Source: Candidatus Bathyarchaeota archaeon
GTDB lineage: Archaea; Thermoproteota; Bathyarchaeia; Bathyarchaeales; Bathycorpusculaceae
Length of the DNA: 41,903 bases
Assembly (NCBI GenBank): GCA_963739305.1
Contig: CAVTZU010000005.1
Span: 1 to 41,903, forward strand
Reading direction: 5' to 3'
Part shown: piece after piece, positions 27,838-32,468 of the stretch
Numbering within the stretch: position 1 is the first letter of the stretch
Layout: each line of letters opens with the position of its first letter
Translations under genes and position numbers: made by a program
Notes under the pieces: model-generated
Told to the model about the DNA's origin: nothing
Database searches by the model: none
The model's input: only the letters and a program-made list of their open reading frames with translations

Positions 27838-28260
27838 CTAGATCATGGCTCGCGGGGACTCGATTTTTCTCAGAAGCGGACGTAGCGCGGCATGAGTCAT
27901 TCCTTCATCCACTTGATTCCCTTTGAACACTCCTGTTGCTCCGATTTGTCGACATATGAACGTCAACGAGTCTTCCGTGAAGTTCAGGAGGTTCTGCCCG
28001 TCGTTTGTAAGCTTGTATACTTTTCTCGGTCTTTCAGTTGACATTTCCCAGTCGCTCTTGACGTACCCTTTCTTTTCTAATGTTCCAAGCAGAGGGTAGA
28101 TGGTGCTTGGTCCGAAATAGACGCCGAAGGTCTTGCGGATCTTCGTTATTATTTGGTAACCATGCATGGGCTGTCCATTCAGAAACTGTAGTATTATGAG
28201 GTCTAGAAGGCCTTTCATGAGCTTGGTTTGTACTTCTTTGGAGTTGTTCATTTCTGACAC
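27838..28260 (-). CDS. PadR family transcriptional regulator
   Basis: KGLLDLIIL...PMHGYQI...GPSTIYPLL..LEKKGYV...RPRKVYKLT.DG. Confidence 0.92.
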   Translation of the reverse strand: MSEMNNSKEVQTKLMKGLLDLIILQFLNGQPMHGYQIITKIRKTFGVYFGPSTIYPLLGTLEKKGYVKSDWEMSTERPRKVYKLTNDGQNLLNFTEDSLTFICRQIGATGVFKGNQVDEGMTHAALRPLLRKIESPRAMI

Positions 28261-28316
28261 CCTTTTGTTGTTTTGCGGTATCTTTGTTCAACAGTTTGTC
28301 TGTTGGACGCTGATAC

Positions 28317-28340
28317 GATATGTCTATTGTAAGACATATC
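28317..28340. promoter_or_regulatory. Perfect 9-bp inverted repeat GATATGTCT-N6-AGACATATC (ATGT-N10-ACAT core), candidate PadR operator
   Basis: Read directly. Lies between divergent padR genes next to TATA-like TATATA at about 28350. Confidence 0.7.
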
Positions 28341-28390
28341 TTGAGTCTCTATATACACTAAACAATCATATAAATGTTCATGCTTACCCG

Positions 28391-28417
28391 AAGCATAAAG
28401 AAGCATACACAAGCATA
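28391..28417 (+). repeat. Three AAGCATA direct repeats at 10-bp period
   Basis: AAGCATA at 28391, 28401 and 28411. Inverted ATGCTT at 28380. Confidence 0.65.
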
Positions 28418-28491
28418 TTAGAGACCGTGACTCCAACGTAAATCTAATAAGCCCAAATGCAAACAAGTACGGAAATAGACATAAAGAGAAC

Positions 28492-28827
28492 GTGCACGAA
28501 TTGTCGGACGTGTATAGAAAGGAACTTGTTCAACGCATCACCAAGAACCTGCTCGATATTCAGATTCTGCGCCTGATCCAGCAGCGACCCATGTGGGGAT
28601 ACATGATAAAAAAACAAGCGGAGAGGAAATTTGACGTGAGACTCAGACACGGAGCACTTTACCCACTGCTTAACGCGTTGGAAAAAGACAGCTTTCTAAC
28701 CAGCGAGAAGCAAGCGAAGGGTGGCAGAACCAGGAAGGTATACATGATAACGTGGAAAGGCATCCACTACTTAGAGGTGTACGACAGCATTCTTAAGGAG
28801 CAGTTGAACCGAAAAGACATCGAATAG
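28492..28827 (+). CDS. PadR family transcriptional regulator
   Basis: KNLLDIQIL...PMWGYMI...HGALYPLLNALEK...GRTRKVYMIT.KG. Start may be TTG 28501. Confidence 0.9.
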   Translation: MHELSDVYRKELVQRITKNLLDIQILRLIQQRPMWGYMIKKQAERKFDVRLRHGALYPLLNALEKDSFLTSEKQAKGGRTRKVYMITWKGIHYLEVYDSILKEQLNRKDIE

Positions 28828-28873
28828 ACCAGCTGCTAGTTCTTAAATAGCACATGCTAACAACAACTCCAAC

Positions 28874-29872: not shown

Positions 29873-29875
29873 AAT

Positions 29876-29926
29876 CTAAAACGGGTATGTCCTAACAGGA
29901 ACGTTCCGTTTCTTAGCTTTCGTCAT
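29876..29926 (-). CDS. Putative 16-aa precursor peptide MTKAKKRNVPVRTYPF
   Basis: Read manually: ATG ACG AAA GCT AAG AAA CGG AAC GTT CCT GTT AGG ACA TAC CCG TTT TAG. GTGAGGGA 5 nt upstream and a BRE/TATA-like element about 40 nt upstream. Stop lies 3 nt from the prenyltransferase stop. Confidence 0.55.
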   Translation of the reverse strand: MTKAKKRNVPVRTYPF

Positions 29927-29963
29927 CTCAATCCCTCACAAGAGTATACGTGTACAACAGGTG

Positions 29964-29980
29964 TACTTAAGGTTTATTGT
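29964..29980 (-). promoter_or_regulatory. BRE/TATA-like promoter for the micro-ORF (ACAATAAACC-TTAAGTA)
   Basis: A-rich BRE-like run followed by CTTAAGTA, oriented toward the 16-aa ORF. A second AAAAACTTAACAA faces the MFS gene at about 29998-30010. Confidence 0.5.
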
Positions 29981-30060
29981 TGAACGATAATACAGTTAAA
30001 AACTTAACAAGTCTTTTATGATGAGACATATGAATCTTGATTTGAAGGTTACCTCGCGGA

Positions 30061-31311
30061 ATGCAGCACAAAAGGATAATGGAGCCGCGTATTCCACCGA
30101 AAGAACTAGCACCTGCCGTCATCTTAGTTTTGAACAGCCTCACATGGCTCACGCTGACATCCACCCAACTGAGCAGTTCAATTGACAACATCAAACTGCC
30201 ACTCATCGGAGTTCTGACACTGCAGGGCGTGTACTACGCCGGAATAGCATTCTCCGCGATCCTTGGCGCATACCTGTTTCCTCGAGCCAGAGAAAAGTAC
30301 CTACTAGCTTGGATTCTGTTTGGAAGCATCACCACTGCGCTGCCAGCTGCTCTTCTAAAAGGTTATTTTCCCATCGATCTGGCCATCTGTCTTTTTCTCG
30401 GTGTCTCGATCGGCATGGGTCTCCCTTCTGCTCTTGCCTACTTTGCAGACACGACTTCCGTAGAAAATCGTGGCAGTTACGGAGGATTAACTTATGTCAC
30501 CATAGGACTGGGAGGATTGGCCATAGGAATCGTATTGGGAATTATCGATCCGTCTCTCGGTTTTGCCGCCCTCGCTGTTTGGAGAGCAATCGGACTCGTT
30601 CTATTCCTCGGATTAACAAGGCTAAGAGGAAAGCTGCAACCGCCGATGAACGTACCCTCATATCGCGACATATTGACTAGAAGAGAACTGATTCTCTATC
30701 TAATTCCGTGGACGATGTTTTCGCTCGTAAATTTCGCAGAATCCCCGATCGTCACGGCAAGCCTGCCATCGAGCACCGTTTTCTTCAGCTCTTTCGGATA
30801 CATTGGACTGGAGTTAGCCTTATCCGGAGTCTTCGCGCTGGTCGCTGGAATTCTCAGTGATCGTGTTGGAAGAAAGAGAATAGTCATAACGGGATTCCTA
30901 ATTCTAGGTATCGAGTATGCAATCTTAAGCCTGTTTTTCTGGAGCGAAGTCTCTTGGTACATCTACACAGTGTGCGACGGCATTACGTGGGGAATGTTTG
31001 CATCGGTTTTTTTTATGACGTTGTGGGGAGACCTCGCAGCAAGTTGCCAGAAGGAAAAGTACTATGTGCTCGGCGGGCTACCTTATCTACTGGCGGGATT
31101 CCTGCCTATCCTGGTCAAATCGTTAACAAACAACCTGCAGAGCGTGCAGAACCTGCAAACCACCGCTTTCTCTCTTGCCAGTTTCTTCCTATTCGTCGCT
31201 GTTCTGCCCTTGATGTACGCCCCTGAAACTCTGCCGGAGAAAAGAATCAAAGACAGAGAGCTAAGAGGATACCTTGAACAGGCCAAGAAGGCCAAAGAGA
31301 AATACGCTTAA
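30061..31311 (+). CDS. MFS transporter
   Basis: About 12 hydrophobic helices, motif A GILSDRVGRKR, ENRGSYGG, C-terminal APETLPEK. Confidence 0.9.
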   Translation: MQHKRIMEPRIPPKELAPAVILVLNSLTWLTLTSTQLSSSIDNIKLPLIGVLTLQGVYYAGIAFSAILGAYLFPRAREKYLLAWILFGSITTALPAALLKGYFPIDLAICLFLGVSIGMGLPSALAYFADTTSVENRGSYGGLTYVTIGLGGLAIGIVLGIIDPSLGFAALAVWRAIGLVLFLGLTRLRGKLQPPMNVPSYRDILTRRELILYLIPWTMFSLVNFAESPIVTASLPSSTVFFSSFGYIGLELALSGVFALVAGILSDRVGRKRIVITGFLILGIEYAILSLFFWSEVSWYIYTVCDGITWGMFASVFFMTLWGDLAASCQKEKYYVLGGLPYLLAGFLPILVKSLTNNLQSVQNLQTTAFSLASFFLFVAVLPLMYAPETLPEKRIKDRELRGYLEQAKKAKEKYA

Positions 31312-31343
31312 GAGCTGGGTTTCTCCCAACTAGGGACGAAAAC

Positions 31344-32468
31344 ATGTTCTTCCACATAATACTCACGACCGAATGTAATTCACAATGCCGATACTGTTAC
31401 GGCGAAGCCCTGGATGATTTTGATGAGGATTCGCTCGAAGTTGCACTGGATTATTCATTACCCAGAAAAATGAACTACGATGTAAGCCTGCTTGACAGAC
31501 TCTGCAAGCGAGATCCCTATTGTGTCTTGACCTTCTACGGCGGCGAGCCGCTGCTATGCCTGGACGAAATCAGAAGAATCATGGATGAGACAAAACCGAA
31601 ACTTTTCATGATACAAACTAACGGTCTGCTTTTGGACAGCTTGGAATCCGACTACCTTAATCGTTTTCACACAATTCTCGTATCCATCGATGGCGATGAA
31701 GCCCTGACAGACTCTTATCGAGGACCAGGAACCTTCCGAAGAGTTGTCAACAACCTCAGACTAATAAAAAAGAACGGTTTCTCCGGGGAACTGATCGCTC
31801 GGATGACCGTTATGGAAAATACTGACATATACAAGCAGGTTAGATGGCTTCTCGACAATGAGGAGTTCGCGTTCTCTTCTGTTCATTGGCAGCTCAACGC
31901 GGGGTTCTGGAAGGCGGATTACGCCAGACGCGACTTTCAAAGGTGGACTCACGAAGATTACAACCCGCATTTGAGAGAGCTGATCGCATATTGGGTGGAC
32001 TACATGGAAAATGAGGGCGTCGTTCTCAGATTGTACCCACTTATTGGCGTTGCCGAATCTCTCCTTTCAGGAGAGAAGGACGCCTTACTTCGTTGCGGCG
32101 GCGGATGGATAAACTATGCAACACAAACAGATGGAAAAATCATCCCCTGCCCAACTATGTGGGGAATGAAACAATACTATTTGGGCCACGTCAGCAGCAT
32201 AGATCCTTGGAAACTGCCCAAAGTGTTCGTGAACCAACCTTGTTCGGGCTGTGCCGCGCTCAAGCTATGCGGTGGACGATGCCTCTATGCGAACGTCATG
32301 AAACGATGGACTCCAAACGCTTACAGCGAAGTGTGCAACACTGTTCAGAACCTAATTGACGCGATCTCCGAACAGATGCCCAGAATAAGACGGCTAATTG
32401 AAAGCGGAAGAATTCACTTCAGAGACTTCGAATACATCAGATTCAATGGCTGCGAGATAATTCCATAG
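31344..32468 (+). CDS. Radical SAM/SPASM protein, resembling the AF0577 (TIGR04084) putative peptide-modifying family
   Basis: CNSQCRYC, FYGGEP, QTNG, SIDG, HWQL. SPASM cysteines RCGGG..PCP..CSGC...CGGRC..C. Confidence 0.85.
   Translation: MFFHIILTTECNSQCRYCYGEALDDFDEDSLEVALDYSLPRKMNYDVSLLDRLCKRDPYCVLTFYGGEPLLCLDEIRRIMDETKPKLFMIQTNGLLLDSLESDYLNRFHTILVSIDGDEALTDSYRGPGTFRRVVNNLRLIKKNGFSGELIARMTVMENTDIYKQVRWLLDNEEFAFSSVHWQLNAGFWKADYARRDFQRWTHEDYNPHLRELIAYWVDYMENEGVVLRLYPLIGVAESLLSGEKDALLRCGGGWINYATQTDGKIIPCPTMWGMKQYYLGHVSSIDPWKLPKVFVNQPCSGCAALKLCGGRCLYANVMKRWTPNAYSEVCNTVQNLIDAISEQMPRIRRLIESGRIHFRDFEYIRFNGCEIIP

What the first reader, a model, noticed from the sequence alone, without database searches (positions are those of the whole stretch)
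27838..32468. Candidate archaeal prenylated-peptide signalling/RiPP locus: two PadR, ComQ-like prenyltransferase, 16-aa peptide, MFS, radical SAM/SPASM
Seen: divergent padR pair with an operator palindrome, a polyprenyl-synthase-fold gene with a broken SARM, a tiny ORF with promoter/RBS-like signals, a divergent MFS gene and a radical SAM/SPASM gene 32 nt after it. Known: Bacillus ComQ is an isoprenyl diphosphate synthase homologue lacking a canonical SARM that prenylates a Trp near the C-terminus of the adjacent ComX peptide; some PadR proteins (LmrR) bind hydrophobic ligands; SPASM enzymes often modify peptides. Inference: precursor, modifier, transporter and sensor form a ComQX-like quorum-sensing or RiPP system. 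I know of no description of one in archaea.
Basis: partly seen in the sequence, partly recalled or inferred. Interest (0 to 1): 0.92.

Follow-up and report, generated by a model that had tools for sequence, protein, structure and literature searches.

The report
Tiny archaeal peptide gene with prenyl-enzyme
A 16-codon gene too small for any annotation pipeline is conserved across Bathyarchaeia archaea beside a prenyl-synthase-like enzyme, an export pump and two repressors, which is the layout of a system that makes and exports a small lipid-tagged peptide, something not yet described in archaea.

Summary
The 16-codon ORF (29876-29926, minus strand) is a real, conserved gene. A basic micro-ORF with a P-x-R motif and a hydrophobic or aromatic tail lies between the prenyl-synthase-like gene (PS) and the MFS gene in 63 of 80 related loci, and variant forms are in 13 more. 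About 0.005 per locus is expected by chance for the strict pattern. Its invariant Pro and Arg use 4 and 6 different codons, so selection acts on the peptide. PS and MFS co-occur almost perfectly (35 genomes with both, 3 and 1 with one, of 201). The padR pair is adjacent in 34 of 80 loci. The radical SAM gene (TIGR04084) is adjacent in 52 of 80, but only in the window's family. Elsewhere it stands alone without the micro-ORF, so it is not core. PS keeps the first Asp-rich motif (35 of 35) and an acidic second motif (31 of 35), so the SARM is altered, not lost. It has lost the IPP-binding motif. Best reading (about 0.4): a tiny ribosomal peptide is prenylated by PS and exported by the MFS under PadR control. 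Quorum sensing is untested. No description was found in print.

The parts
27838..28260 (-). padRa: short PadR-family repressor, 140 aa, divergent from padRb
   Evidence: PF03551, 69.5 bits. Orthologues are 62-84% identical across loci in which PS is only 34-60% identical. Closest solved structures are short PadR proteins.
28278..28340 (.). Palindromic operator-like elements in the padRa/padRb spacer: an imperfect 17-nt inverted repeat at 28278-28316 and a perfect 9-nt-arm palindrome at 28317-28340
   Evidence: the repeat finder; 1 match against 0.12 expected. Both blocks are conserved in 15 aligned loci. Binding by PadR is inferred, not tested.
28492..28827 (+). padRb: short PadR-family regulator, 111 aa, 46 nt upstream of the PS-like gene (probable operon)
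   Evidence: PF03551, 60.7 bits. Adjacent to PS together with padRa in 34 of 80 loci.
28874..29872 (+). PS-like enzyme: trans-isoprenyl-diphosphate-synthase fold. FARM is kept, the SARM position reads EEFVD, and the IPP-binding GGKRxR motif is lost
   Evidence: PF00348, 77.4 bits. The genome's canonical synthase scores 216 bits. AF2 model pLDDT 92.7. Foldseek top hits are prenyl diphosphate synthases. Motifs from alignments A1 and A2.
29876..29926 (-). Micro-ORF, 16 codons plus stop: MTKAKKRNVPVRTYPF. It is convergent with PS (3 nt between the two stop codons) and divergent from the MFS gene
   Evidence: Conserved in 35 of 51 loci with the strict pattern, against 0.005 expected per locus. Also 63 of 80 and 69 of 80 against 13.7 expected. 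Pro uses 4 codons and Arg 6. 19 synonymous and 32 non-synonymous differences in frame, against 8/43 and 1/48 out of frame.
29932..29972 (-). Expression signals of the micro-ORF: Shine-Dalgarno-like GAGGGA (29932-29937), a conserved repeat/operator-like block (29942-29966) and a TATA-like ACTTAAGG (29965-29972)
   Evidence: Read. The blocks are conserved in the 15-locus alignment. Purine-rich boxes lie upstream of the start in most loci. Their function is inferred.
29977..30019 (+). Conserved block TTGTTGAAC..AATACAG (29977-29995) and TATA-like CTTTTAT (30013-30019), upstream of the MFS start
   Evidence: Consensus line. Function is inferred. The short motif alone is not enriched in the window.
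30061..31311 (+). MFS transporter, 416 aa, probable exporter
   Evidence: PF07690, 48.2 bits, with weak matches to efflux pumps. Downstream of PS on the same strand in 80 of 80 loci. Phyletic pattern matches PS in 35 genomes.
31344..32468 (+). Radical SAM/SPASM protein of family TIGR04084. It is a neighbour, doubtful as a member of the module
   Evidence: 282.4 bits against a cut-off of 225. Adjacent in 52 of 80 loci, but in 0 of 9 large loci of other families. Variable context and no micro-ORF in 20 of 20 stand-alone loci.

Best explanation
This is a conserved accessory module of Bathyarchaeia. Its core has three parts: a 10-22-codon gene for a strongly basic peptide with a P-x-R motif and a short hydrophobic or aromatic tail; an enzyme derived from trans-isoprenyl diphosphate synthases; and an MFS pump. 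A divergent pair of PadR regulators is often attached.

The most likely mechanism is as follows. The enzyme still binds and ionises an allylic prenyl diphosphate, because both acidic motifs are kept. It no longer binds IPP. Instead it transfers the prenyl group to the C-terminal tail of the micro-peptide. The MFS pump exports the resulting cationic lipopeptide. The PadR proteins, bound at the conserved palindromes, set expression of the peptide, the pump and the enzyme.

Shown here: the conservation and coding nature of the micro-ORF, the gene linkage, and the motif pattern of the enzyme. Inferred: that the peptide is the acceptor, that the pump exports it, that PadR binds these sites, and any signalling or antibiotic role.
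For: A micro-ORF is conserved next to PS. The strict pattern is found in 35 of 51 loci, against a genome-wide rate of 0.005 per equivalent window. It is found in 63 of 80 loci, with 13 more variants, and the relaxed pattern in 69 of 80 against 13.7 expected. Selection acts on the peptide: the invariant Pro uses CCT/CCA/CCG/CCC and the invariant Arg uses AGG/AGA/CGA/CGG/CGT/CGC, and 37% of codon differences are synonymous in frame against 16% and 2% out of frame. Shine-Dalgarno-like and TATA-like boxes are conserved.

The peptide stays with PS when the layout changes. In another family, PS is inverted and the micro-ORF lies directly upstream of it on the same strand. The micro-ORF and its promoter are tandemly duplicated at about 99% identity in 2 loci.

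PS and MFS are tightly coupled: both are present in 35 genomes, PS alone in 3, MFS alone in 1, neither in 162 of 201, and they are adjacent in 80 of 80 loci.

The enzyme has FARM in 35 of 35 and two acidic residues at the SARM position in 31 of 35. The stretch aligned with GGKRxR has no K or R in 20 of 35. A separate canonical synthase exists in the genome.

Tails are enriched in Trp: 33 of 67 peptides have W in the last 8 residues and 13 end in W. IPPS-derived peptide prenyltransferases acting on Trp at or near the C-terminus of an adjacent small gene product are known in bacteria: ComQ, PalQ and StheQ (PMC10853753 first part read; bioRxiv 10.64898/2026.08.29.745113 first part read; PMC13290415 section 2.4 read).
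Against: According to the review (PMC13290415, section 2.4), all characterised IPPS-like peptide prenyltransferases target Trp. Yet half of these peptides lack Trp, about 12 of 67 have no aromatic residue in the tail, and the window's own tail has Tyr and Phe only.

The enzyme keeps an acidic SARM and lacks the Gln said to mark the Trp enzymes (1 of 35). By sequence and fold it is no closer to the Trp prenyltransferase Ord1 than to true synthases (E 1.8e-8 against 3.9e-15; Foldseek rank 16).

PS-MFS pairs exist without a recognisable micro-ORF. Among 10 distant paralogue loci fetched, none has one. Among the two G239 loci re-examined there, one has a clear candidate (L065) and one a doubtful candidate (L064). 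The loci of one genus also lack it.

The peptide is far shorter than known precursors of this class (53-69 aa or more). No protease or leader-recognition protein is conserved nearby. A geranylgeranyl-reductase-like gene in 3 of 21 large loci would fit isoprenoid chemistry unrelated to the peptide equally well.
Confidence: 0.4

Rival explanations
1. PS-like enzyme and MFS pump make and export a non-peptide product, such as an unusual isoprenoid or a prenylated small molecule like an aromatic amino acid. The micro-peptide is not the substrate. It would be an unmodified regulatory or signalling peptide, for instance a ligand or antagonist of the PadR proteins.
For: The PS-MFS pairing is older and wider than the micro-ORF. 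None of the 10 distant paralogue loci fetched for one search shows a micro-ORF, and the loci of one genus also lack one. The enzyme keeps both acidic motifs, like enzymes that act on prenyl diphosphates alone. A geranylgeranyl-reductase-like gene lies in 3 of 21 large loci. Ord1, an IPPS-fold enzyme, farnesylates free tryptophan (PMC13290415, section 2.4 read). The non-coding DNA around the micro-ORF and between the padR genes is unusually conserved, which fits a regulatory circuit.
Against: It gives no reason why a peptide with a variable, Trp-rich tail should stay next to PS through an inversion. It also does not explain why the micro-ORF is duplicated together with its promoter. The padR pair is missing from 44 of 80 loci that mostly keep the micro-ORF.
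Confidence: 0.3
2. The micro-ORF encodes an unmodified cationic peptide, either an antimicrobial 'archaeocin' or a pheromone. The MFS pump exports it or confers immunity, and the PS-like enzyme plays an indirect role such as membrane adaptation.
For: The median net charge is +6 and the tails are hydrophobic and Trp-rich. An efflux-type MFS gene is divergently transcribed from it in 80 of 80 loci. PadR regulators commonly control efflux pumps and envelope-stress genes (general knowledge, recalled).
Against: It does not explain the near-perfect phyletic and positional coupling with an enzyme that has lost the IPP site. It also does not explain the operon-like placement of the micro-ORF in front of PS in one family.
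Confidence: 0.1
3. In the window's family the radical SAM/SPASM enzyme (TIGR04084) is a second maturase of the peptide, making a cross-link or similar change.
For: The gene starts 32 nt after the MFS stop. It is adjacent in 52 of 80 of the closest loci, over PS divergence down to about 34% identity. Its next-best NCBIfam matches are peptide maturases, for example PapB at 96.4 bits, far below that model's cut-off.
Against: The family passes its cut-off in 91 of 201 class genomes, against 38 with a PS orthologue. It is absent from 9 of 9 large PS loci of other families. It is not found over the cut-off in the two genomes of a genus that has PS, peptide, MFS and PadR. In 20 of 20 stand-alone loci it has no conserved neighbour and no family-like micro-ORF. 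The window's copy is the genome's only member over the cut-off, so it is the orthologue of a widespread gene, not a dedicated paralogue.
Confidence: 0.15
4. The micro-ORF is not translated, and the conservation reflects DNA or RNA signals such as the PS terminator or operators.
For: The ORF lies 3 nt from the PS stop. In this window it contains a 10-nt palindrome (read). There are no expression data.
Against: The invariant Pro and Arg are encoded by 4 and 6 different codons, including AGR and CGN. Start and stop codons and the reading frame are kept while the DNA diverges. Synonymous changes are in excess only in this frame. No Rfam family matches.
Confidence: 0.04

Closest known systems
ComQ/ComX of Bacillus (comQXPA quorum sensing)
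   Same: [quoted passage not shown] The product of that gene has a variable C-terminal part that often contains Trp. The prenyl donor would be an allylic diphosphate. (Papers: PMC10853753 introduction and the StheQ preprint introduction, both read.)
   Different: ComQ has a pseudo-SARM (NDXXX, per the preprint), whereas here the position stays acidic in 31 of 35. ComX precursors are several times longer. The partner is a histidine kinase and response regulator, while here it is PadR regulators plus an MFS pump. The host is an archaeon. Half of the peptides have no Trp. No sequence comparison with ComQ could be made, because no ComQ sequence or model was at hand.
PalQ/PalX (Paenibacillus alvei) and StheQ/StheX (Sphaerobacter thermophilus)
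   Same: These are IPPS-derived peptide prenyltransferases found by their adjacency to a small Trp-ending peptide gene. PalQ needs a C-terminal Trp, and the proposed PalX core DNVRRFFW is basic and then aromatic (PMC10853753). Here 13 of 67 peptides end in W, and many carry R followed by aromatic residues.
   Different: PalX has a nitrile-hydratase-type leader and StheX is 69 aa, whereas here the whole gene is 10-22 codons. The conserved Gln before the SARM is missing (1 of 35). The neighbours differ (a histidine kinase in the Pal cluster). None of the archaeal proteins has been assayed.
Ord1 (IPPS-fold indole prenyltransferase; PDB 9v4g, 9v4h, 9v4i)
   Same: It has the same all-helical fold and matches the model (Foldseek TM about 0.7) and the sequence (E 1.8e-8).
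   Different: It ranks below a dozen genuine prenyl diphosphate synthases in both searches. It acts on free tryptophan, not on a peptide.
Microcin C-type clusters
   Same: A very short ribosomal peptide without a classical leader is modified by an adjacent enzyme and exported by an MFS pump.
   Different: The chemistry is different (C-terminal nucleotide attachment), the host is bacterial, and no prenyl enzyme is involved.
Short-peptide/cytoplasmic-regulator signalling of Gram-positive bacteria (Rgg/SHP, ComRS; recalled)
   Same: A tiny unannotated ORF with a basic N-terminus and a hydrophobic, often Trp-containing C-terminus is transcribed divergently from partner genes and is linked to cytoplasmic DNA-binding regulators and a dedicated exporter.
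   Different: The regulators are of a different family (PadR here). No importer or processing protease was identified, and a prenyl enzyme is present. There is no functional evidence.

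Membership tests
IPPS-derived (trans-IDS-like) peptide Trp prenyltransferases: ComQ, PalQ, ChrPC, StheQ | All-alpha trans-isoprenyl diphosphate synthase fold | tested here: met
   PF00348, 77.4 bits. AF2 model pLDDT 92.7. Foldseek E down to 4.8e-12 against prenyl diphosphate synthases.
IPPS-derived (trans-IDS-like) peptide Trp prenyltransferases: ComQ, PalQ, ChrPC, StheQ | Conserved first Asp-rich motif (DDxxD) | tested here: met
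   DDxxD in 35 of 35 family members; the window reads DDIID.
IPPS-derived (trans-IDS-like) peptide Trp prenyltransferases: ComQ, PalQ, ChrPC, StheQ | Second Asp-rich motif degenerated to a pseudo-SARM (NDXXX in ComQ and StheQ) that binds no metal | tested here: not met
   The position reads EExxD 13, DDxxD 9, DExxD 7, EDxxD 2, NExxD 2, SDxxD 1, HExxD 1 of 35. The last Asp is invariant. The motif definition is taken from the StheQ preprint.
IPPS-derived (trans-IDS-like) peptide Trp prenyltransferases: ComQ, PalQ, ChrPC, StheQ | Conserved Gln just upstream of the SARM, implicated in indole recognition | tested here: not met
   Gln is present in 1 of 35 at the aligned position; Thr (12) and Ile (11) are the commonest. 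The feature is taken from PMC13290415, section 2.4. Alignment to the bacterial enzymes themselves was not possible.
IPPS-derived (trans-IDS-like) peptide Trp prenyltransferases: ComQ, PalQ, ChrPC, StheQ | Adjacent small gene whose product carries the acceptor Trp at or near its C-terminus | tested here: inconclusive
   An adjacent micro-ORF is present in 63-76 of 80 loci. W is in the last 8 residues in only 33 of 67 distinct peptides. The window's peptide has Y and F but no W.
IPPS-derived (trans-IDS-like) peptide Trp prenyltransferases: ComQ, PalQ, ChrPC, StheQ | Demonstrated transfer of a prenyl group to the peptide | not testable with these tools
   This needs an enzyme assay or co-expression with mass spectrometry.
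Canonical trans-isoprenyl diphosphate synthase (GGPP synthase, as automatic annotations name it) | IPP-binding basic motif (GGKRxR) and RRG after the FARM | tested here: not met
   The stretch aligned with GGKRWRP of the genome's own canonical enzyme reads YWNDFVHP. It has no K or R in 20 of 35 members. Only one basic residue (K103) is kept after the FARM. NCBIfam synthase models score 78 bits or less against cut-offs of 275-600.
RiPP biosynthetic gene cluster (generic) | Gene-encoded precursor peptide next to a modifying enzyme and a transporter | tested here: met
   Gene linkage is shown. That the enzyme modifies the peptide is not shown.
RiPP biosynthetic gene cluster (generic) | Leader and core organisation with a leader-recognition element or a protease | tested here: not met
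   The peptides are 10-22 aa (a few doubtful calls reach 26). No conserved protease or recognition-domain gene is present in 21 large loci. The basic N-terminus followed by P-x-R could act as a minimal leader, but this is inference.
TIGR04084 radical SAM/SPASM family | Score over the curated cut-off, plus the CxxxCxxC and SPASM Cys motifs | tested here: met
   282.4 bits against a cut-off of 225. The motifs were read in the translation. The function of the family is unknown, and its link to this module is confined to one family of genomes.
PadR family, short (about 110 aa) subfamily | Winged-helix PadR domain with a short C-terminal helix | tested here: met
   PF03551, 69.5 and 60.7 bits. The best PDB relatives are PadR proteins of 102-125 aa.

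The most novel reading that the evidence does not exclude
Bathyarchaeia make ribosomal lipopeptides. A 10-22-residue gene product would be among the shortest precursors known. It would be prenylated on its variable C-terminal tail by an enzyme that evolved from archaeal prenyl diphosphate synthases independently of bacterial ComQ and PalQ, and that is not restricted to Trp. It would be exported by a dedicated MFS pump and sensed by PadR regulators. That would be the first peptide-based cell-to-cell signalling (or lipopeptide antibiotic) system in archaea.
Probability: 0.3. Interest if true: 0.92.

Novelty: new variant of a known kind. Interest (0 to 1): 0.8.

Why it matters
Peptide pheromones and prenylated ribosomal peptides are known from bacteria. 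My searches of the held library found no description of either in archaea, and none of this locus.

The finding gives a concrete test object that can be synthesised: a 16-residue peptide and a 332-residue soluble enzyme. It comes from one of the most abundant uncultured archaeal groups of sediments and soils.

If the enzyme prenylates the peptide, it would be an independent invention of peptide prenylation from an isoprenoid synthase, with acceptor residues beyond Trp. That would interest both evolutionary biology and peptide lipidation chemistry.

Even if it does not, a family of genes of 10-22 codons under clear purifying selection, invisible to gene callers, has been added to the archaeal gene inventory. 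It comes with a strongly conserved PadR regulatory region.

Tried and rejected
Fused forms of the PS-like protein were sought among proteins of 582-2000 aa. None was found at E <= 1e-10, which the tool itself calls weak evidence.

Rfam on 27700-32700 gave one sub-threshold match (CRISPR-DR10, 19.8 bits against 39, E 0.76) inside the radical SAM gene, taken as chance.

The ESM Atlas search returned only Bathyarchaeota polyprenyl-synthetase clusters and added nothing.

I looked for an operator motif shared by the two spacers. The 9-mer TGTYSAACA occurs at one palindromic site in the window (2 strand-matches against 2.09 expected) and not in the micro-ORF/MFS spacer. A common operator is therefore not shown in this window. 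Only cross-locus conservation supports these blocks.

The idea that the radical SAM family carries its own micro-ORF elsewhere was rejected: 0 of 20 stand-alone loci have one.

The upstream methyltransferase (26928-27773) is not conserved in other loci and was left out of the module.

I considered a ribosome-arrest or leader-peptide role for the micro-ORF, because some tails end in R-x-x-P (a resemblance recalled from memory). I set it aside because no gene follows the micro-ORF on its strand.

Complex prediction was not used, because its stated rule asks for chains of 30 residues or more and the peptides are shorter. Read laying was not used.

Two further points are notes, not rejections. The two sets of loci (L003-L055 and L096-L175) come from the same collection of species genomes and overlap. 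The patterns used for counting were derived after seeing the first peptides. The counts are therefore descriptive, with the genome-wide rate as control.

Full report
What is in the window.
- padRa, 27838-28260(-)
- padRb, 28492-28827(+)
- a polyprenyl-synthase-fold gene (PS), 28874-29872(+)
- an MFS transporter, 30061-31311(+)
- a radical SAM/SPASM gene, 31344-32468(+), which belongs to NCBIfam TIGR04084 (282.4 bits, cut-off 225)

The 16-codon ORF lies on the minus strand at 29876-29926 and reads MTKAKKRNVPVRTYPF. It is convergent with PS and divergent from the MFS gene. The padR spacer holds a palindrome with perfect 9-nt arms at 28317-28340, unique in the window. The genome has a second, canonical PF00348 gene on another contig (216 bits against 77.7 bits here), with the usual GGKRWRP, DDxxD and FQxxDDxxD motifs. 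The window's gene is therefore a divergent paralogue.

Is the tiny ORF real? Alone it is not beyond chance, since the 188-nt spacer holds four ORFs of 8 codons or more. I therefore collected PS homologues. The PS homologue was found in 36 of 61 relatives and 47 of 201 genomes of the class at E <= 1e-15, of which I count 38 at E <= 1e-30. A scan of one genome per prokaryotic species found 219 relatives. Among the best 80 of these, 77 record titles name Bathyarchaeia, Bathyarchaeota, Bathyarchaeales or Bathyarchaeum. One reads 'Thermoproteota archaeon'. Two carry bacterial names, on contigs of 5 kb and 31.6 kb; I take these to be binning errors.

In these loci a short basic ORF recurs on the strand opposite to PS, right after its stop codon.
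- With a strict pattern (ATG start, at least 3 K/R, then P-x-R, a tail of 2-10 residues, at most 24 aa in all) it is present in 35 of 51 loci. The same pattern occurs 96 times in the whole 2.3-Mb genome on both strands, or 0.005 per window of equal size.
- In the 80 loci a P-x-R ORF is present in 63.
- Reading the other 17 by eye, 13 carry variant forms, many ending in K-P-K/R-x-x-x-W. Four have none that convinces.
- A relaxed pattern gives 69 of 80 against 13.7 hits expected from the genome-wide rate. It picks up a few false calls.

Three observations show selection on the peptide and not on DNA.
- In 36 loci the invariant Pro is encoded by CCT 7, CCA 20, CCG 4 and CCC 5. The invariant Arg is encoded by AGG 7, AGA 8, CGA 13, CGG 4, CGT 3 and CGC 1.
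- 32 of 36 starts are ATG, preceded by purine-rich GAGGGA- or GGAGG-like boxes.
- Among five close relatives compared with the window, 19 codon differences are synonymous and 32 are not in the true frame, against 8/43 and 1/48 in the two shifted frames.

No Rfam family matches the region.

What the peptides look like. Among 67 distinct calls the median length is 16 aa and the median net charge is +6. W occurs in the last eight residues in 33, any aromatic residue in 54, and 13 end in W. About a dozen genuine-looking peptides have purely aliphatic or Pro tails. The window's genus has tails of the type R-x-(Y/F/I)-P-x. More distant lineages have tails rich in W. In two loci the micro-ORF together with its upstream region is tandemly duplicated at about 99% identity.

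Gene linkage.
- The MFS gene follows PS on the same strand in 80 of 80 loci.
- Across 201 genomes of the class, PS (E <= 1e-30) and the MFS orthologue (E <= 1e-25) are both present in 35 genomes. PS alone is in 3: two at contig ends, and one with a weaker MFS relative beside it. MFS alone is in 1 (my comparison of the tables).
- In one other family, PS is inverted relative to the MFS gene. There the micro-ORF, with tails reading P-(V/I)-R-x-W, lies directly upstream of PS on the same strand. The peptide gene therefore stays between the two partners when the layout changes.
- The padR pair is adjacent in 34 of 80 loci. Where it is not, five of five genomes examined hold the same divergent pair elsewhere (padRa 62-74% identical). 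A membrane protein of about 210-230 aa was seen beside it in three of the five loci. The pair is therefore a movable regulatory cassette and not an exclusive part.
- The padR spacer and the micro-ORF/MFS spacer are strikingly conserved at the DNA level, even where PS is only about 34% identical. Palindromes and TATA-like boxes are present. That PadR binds them is inference.

The radical SAM gene. It is adjacent in 52 of 80 of the closest loci and in 10 of 12 large loci of the window's family. It is in 0 of 9 large loci of other families. The TIGR04084 family passes its cut-off in 91 of 201 genomes of the class, far more than have PS. Two genomes of one genus have PS, peptide, MFS and PadR but no TIGR04084 member over the cut-off. 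In 20 stand-alone loci it has no conserved neighbour and no family-like micro-ORF. I therefore treat it as a neighbour that may have been recruited in one family, not as a core part.

The enzyme. An alignment of 35 family members shows the FARM DDxxD in all. The invariant residues are D94, D95, D98, S100, K103, T108, E166, E192, D231 and R241. The SARM position reads EExxD 13, DDxxD 9, DExxD 7, EDxxD 2, NExxD 2, SDxxD 1 and HExxD 1. The motif is therefore altered in the window but remains acidic in 31 of 35, unlike the pseudo-SARM of ComQ and StheQ. The stretch aligned with the IPP-binding GGKRWRP of the canonical enzyme reads YWNDFVHP and has no K or R in 20 of 35. The AF2 model is confident (pLDDT 92.7). 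It matches prenyl diphosphate synthases best, and the Trp prenyltransferase Ord1 only at rank 16 (sequence search). NCBIfam synthase models score far below their cut-offs. The simplest reading is an enzyme that still binds and ionises an allylic diphosphate but uses an acceptor other than IPP.

Comparison with what is known. I read section 2.4 of a 2026 review (PMC13290415), the first part of the PalQ paper (PMC10853753) and the first part of the StheQ preprint (10.64898/2026.08.29.745113). They describe a bacterial class of IPPS-derived peptide prenyltransferases (ComQ, PalQ, ChrPC, StheQ). These act on Trp at or near the C-terminus of the product of an adjacent small gene, and the review states that all characterised members target Trp.

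The archaeal module shares the logic: an IPPS-derived enzyme beside a small peptide gene whose variable tail is often rich in Trp. It differs in several ways:
- the motif details (acidic SARM, no conserved Gln)
- the size of the peptide (10-22 aa against 53-69 or more)
- the partners (MFS and PadR instead of a histidine kinase)
- the many tails without Trp

I therefore do not file it as a member of that family. I propose that it works like one, with about 0.4 confidence. Library searches found no paper on such a locus in archaea (listings and abstracts only, apart from the three papers named).

Points against the main reading.
- PS-MFS pairs exist without a recognisable micro-ORF. None of the 10 distant paralogue loci fetched shows one. 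Among the two loci of genome G239 re-examined, L065 has a clear candidate and L064 a doubtful one. The loci of one genus also lack it.
- A geranylgeranyl-reductase-like flavoprotein sits in 3 of 21 large loci.
- No protease or leader-recognition protein is conserved.

These points keep alive the rival in which PS and MFS make and export a non-peptide product and the peptide is regulatory (0.3).

Verdict. A conserved module of peptide, enzyme and exporter, with PadR in many loci, is real and unannotated. The radical SAM gene is peripheral, the 'ComQ-like broken SARM' is an overstatement, and prenylation and quorum sensing remain to be shown.

Noticed in passing
L149 3468-3827 and L169 3507-3782: The micro-ORF and about 130 nt of its upstream region are tandemly duplicated. 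The two copies are 98.6-98.9% identical, with periods of about 309 and 222 nt.
   Followed up: partly
L056 6770-7915; also L060 and L068: A geranylgeranyl-reductase-like flavoprotein (PF22578 GGR_cat, PF01494) lies directly beside PS or between the MFS and radical SAM genes in 3 of 21 large loci.
   Followed up: partly
L186-L190: In five of five genomes whose PS locus has no padR genes, the padRa/padRb divergent pair sits elsewhere. A membrane protein of about 210-230 aa lies beside it in three of the five loci (L186, L187, L188). Some genomes hold 2-3 padRa-like copies.
   Followed up: partly
L101 and L134: Two contigs carrying the typical Bathyarchaeial module, including the micro-ORF, are deposited under bacterial names (a Caldiserica bin, 5 kb; a Candidatus Acidoferrum bin, 31.6 kb). 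These are probably binning errors.
   Followed up: no
L066 (G042) and G183; L007/L099 (G001): The PS-like gene is tandemly duplicated in one genus (two full copies before the MFS gene). In a genome of the window's genus, a partial extra copy with an in-frame TGA lies just upstream of the intact gene.
   Followed up: no
L179, L180, L181 (G186): One genome holds four PS-like and at least six MFS paralogues, arranged in PS-MFS groups. Its main locus has lost the micro-ORF.
   Followed up: partly
L072, L073, L066, L075; window about 20000-24000: An ABC-2 type exporter (ATPase plus two permeases) lies downstream of padRa on its strand in several loci, in some with an amidohydrolase gene. It could be a second PadR-controlled transporter.
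   Followed up: no
window 33460-34798 (-): Two overlapping minus-strand ORFs (184 aa and 308 aa) look like the N-terminal and the radical-SAM/TRAM parts of one methylthiotransferase-like gene split by a frameshift. This was judged from the translations only, and the domain names are recalled.
   Followed up: no
window 26928-27773 (+): A SAM-dependent methyltransferase lies just upstream of padRa. It has a weak, sub-threshold match to a RiPP methyltransferase model (38.9 bits against a cut-off of 175) and is not conserved at this position in other loci.
   Followed up: partly
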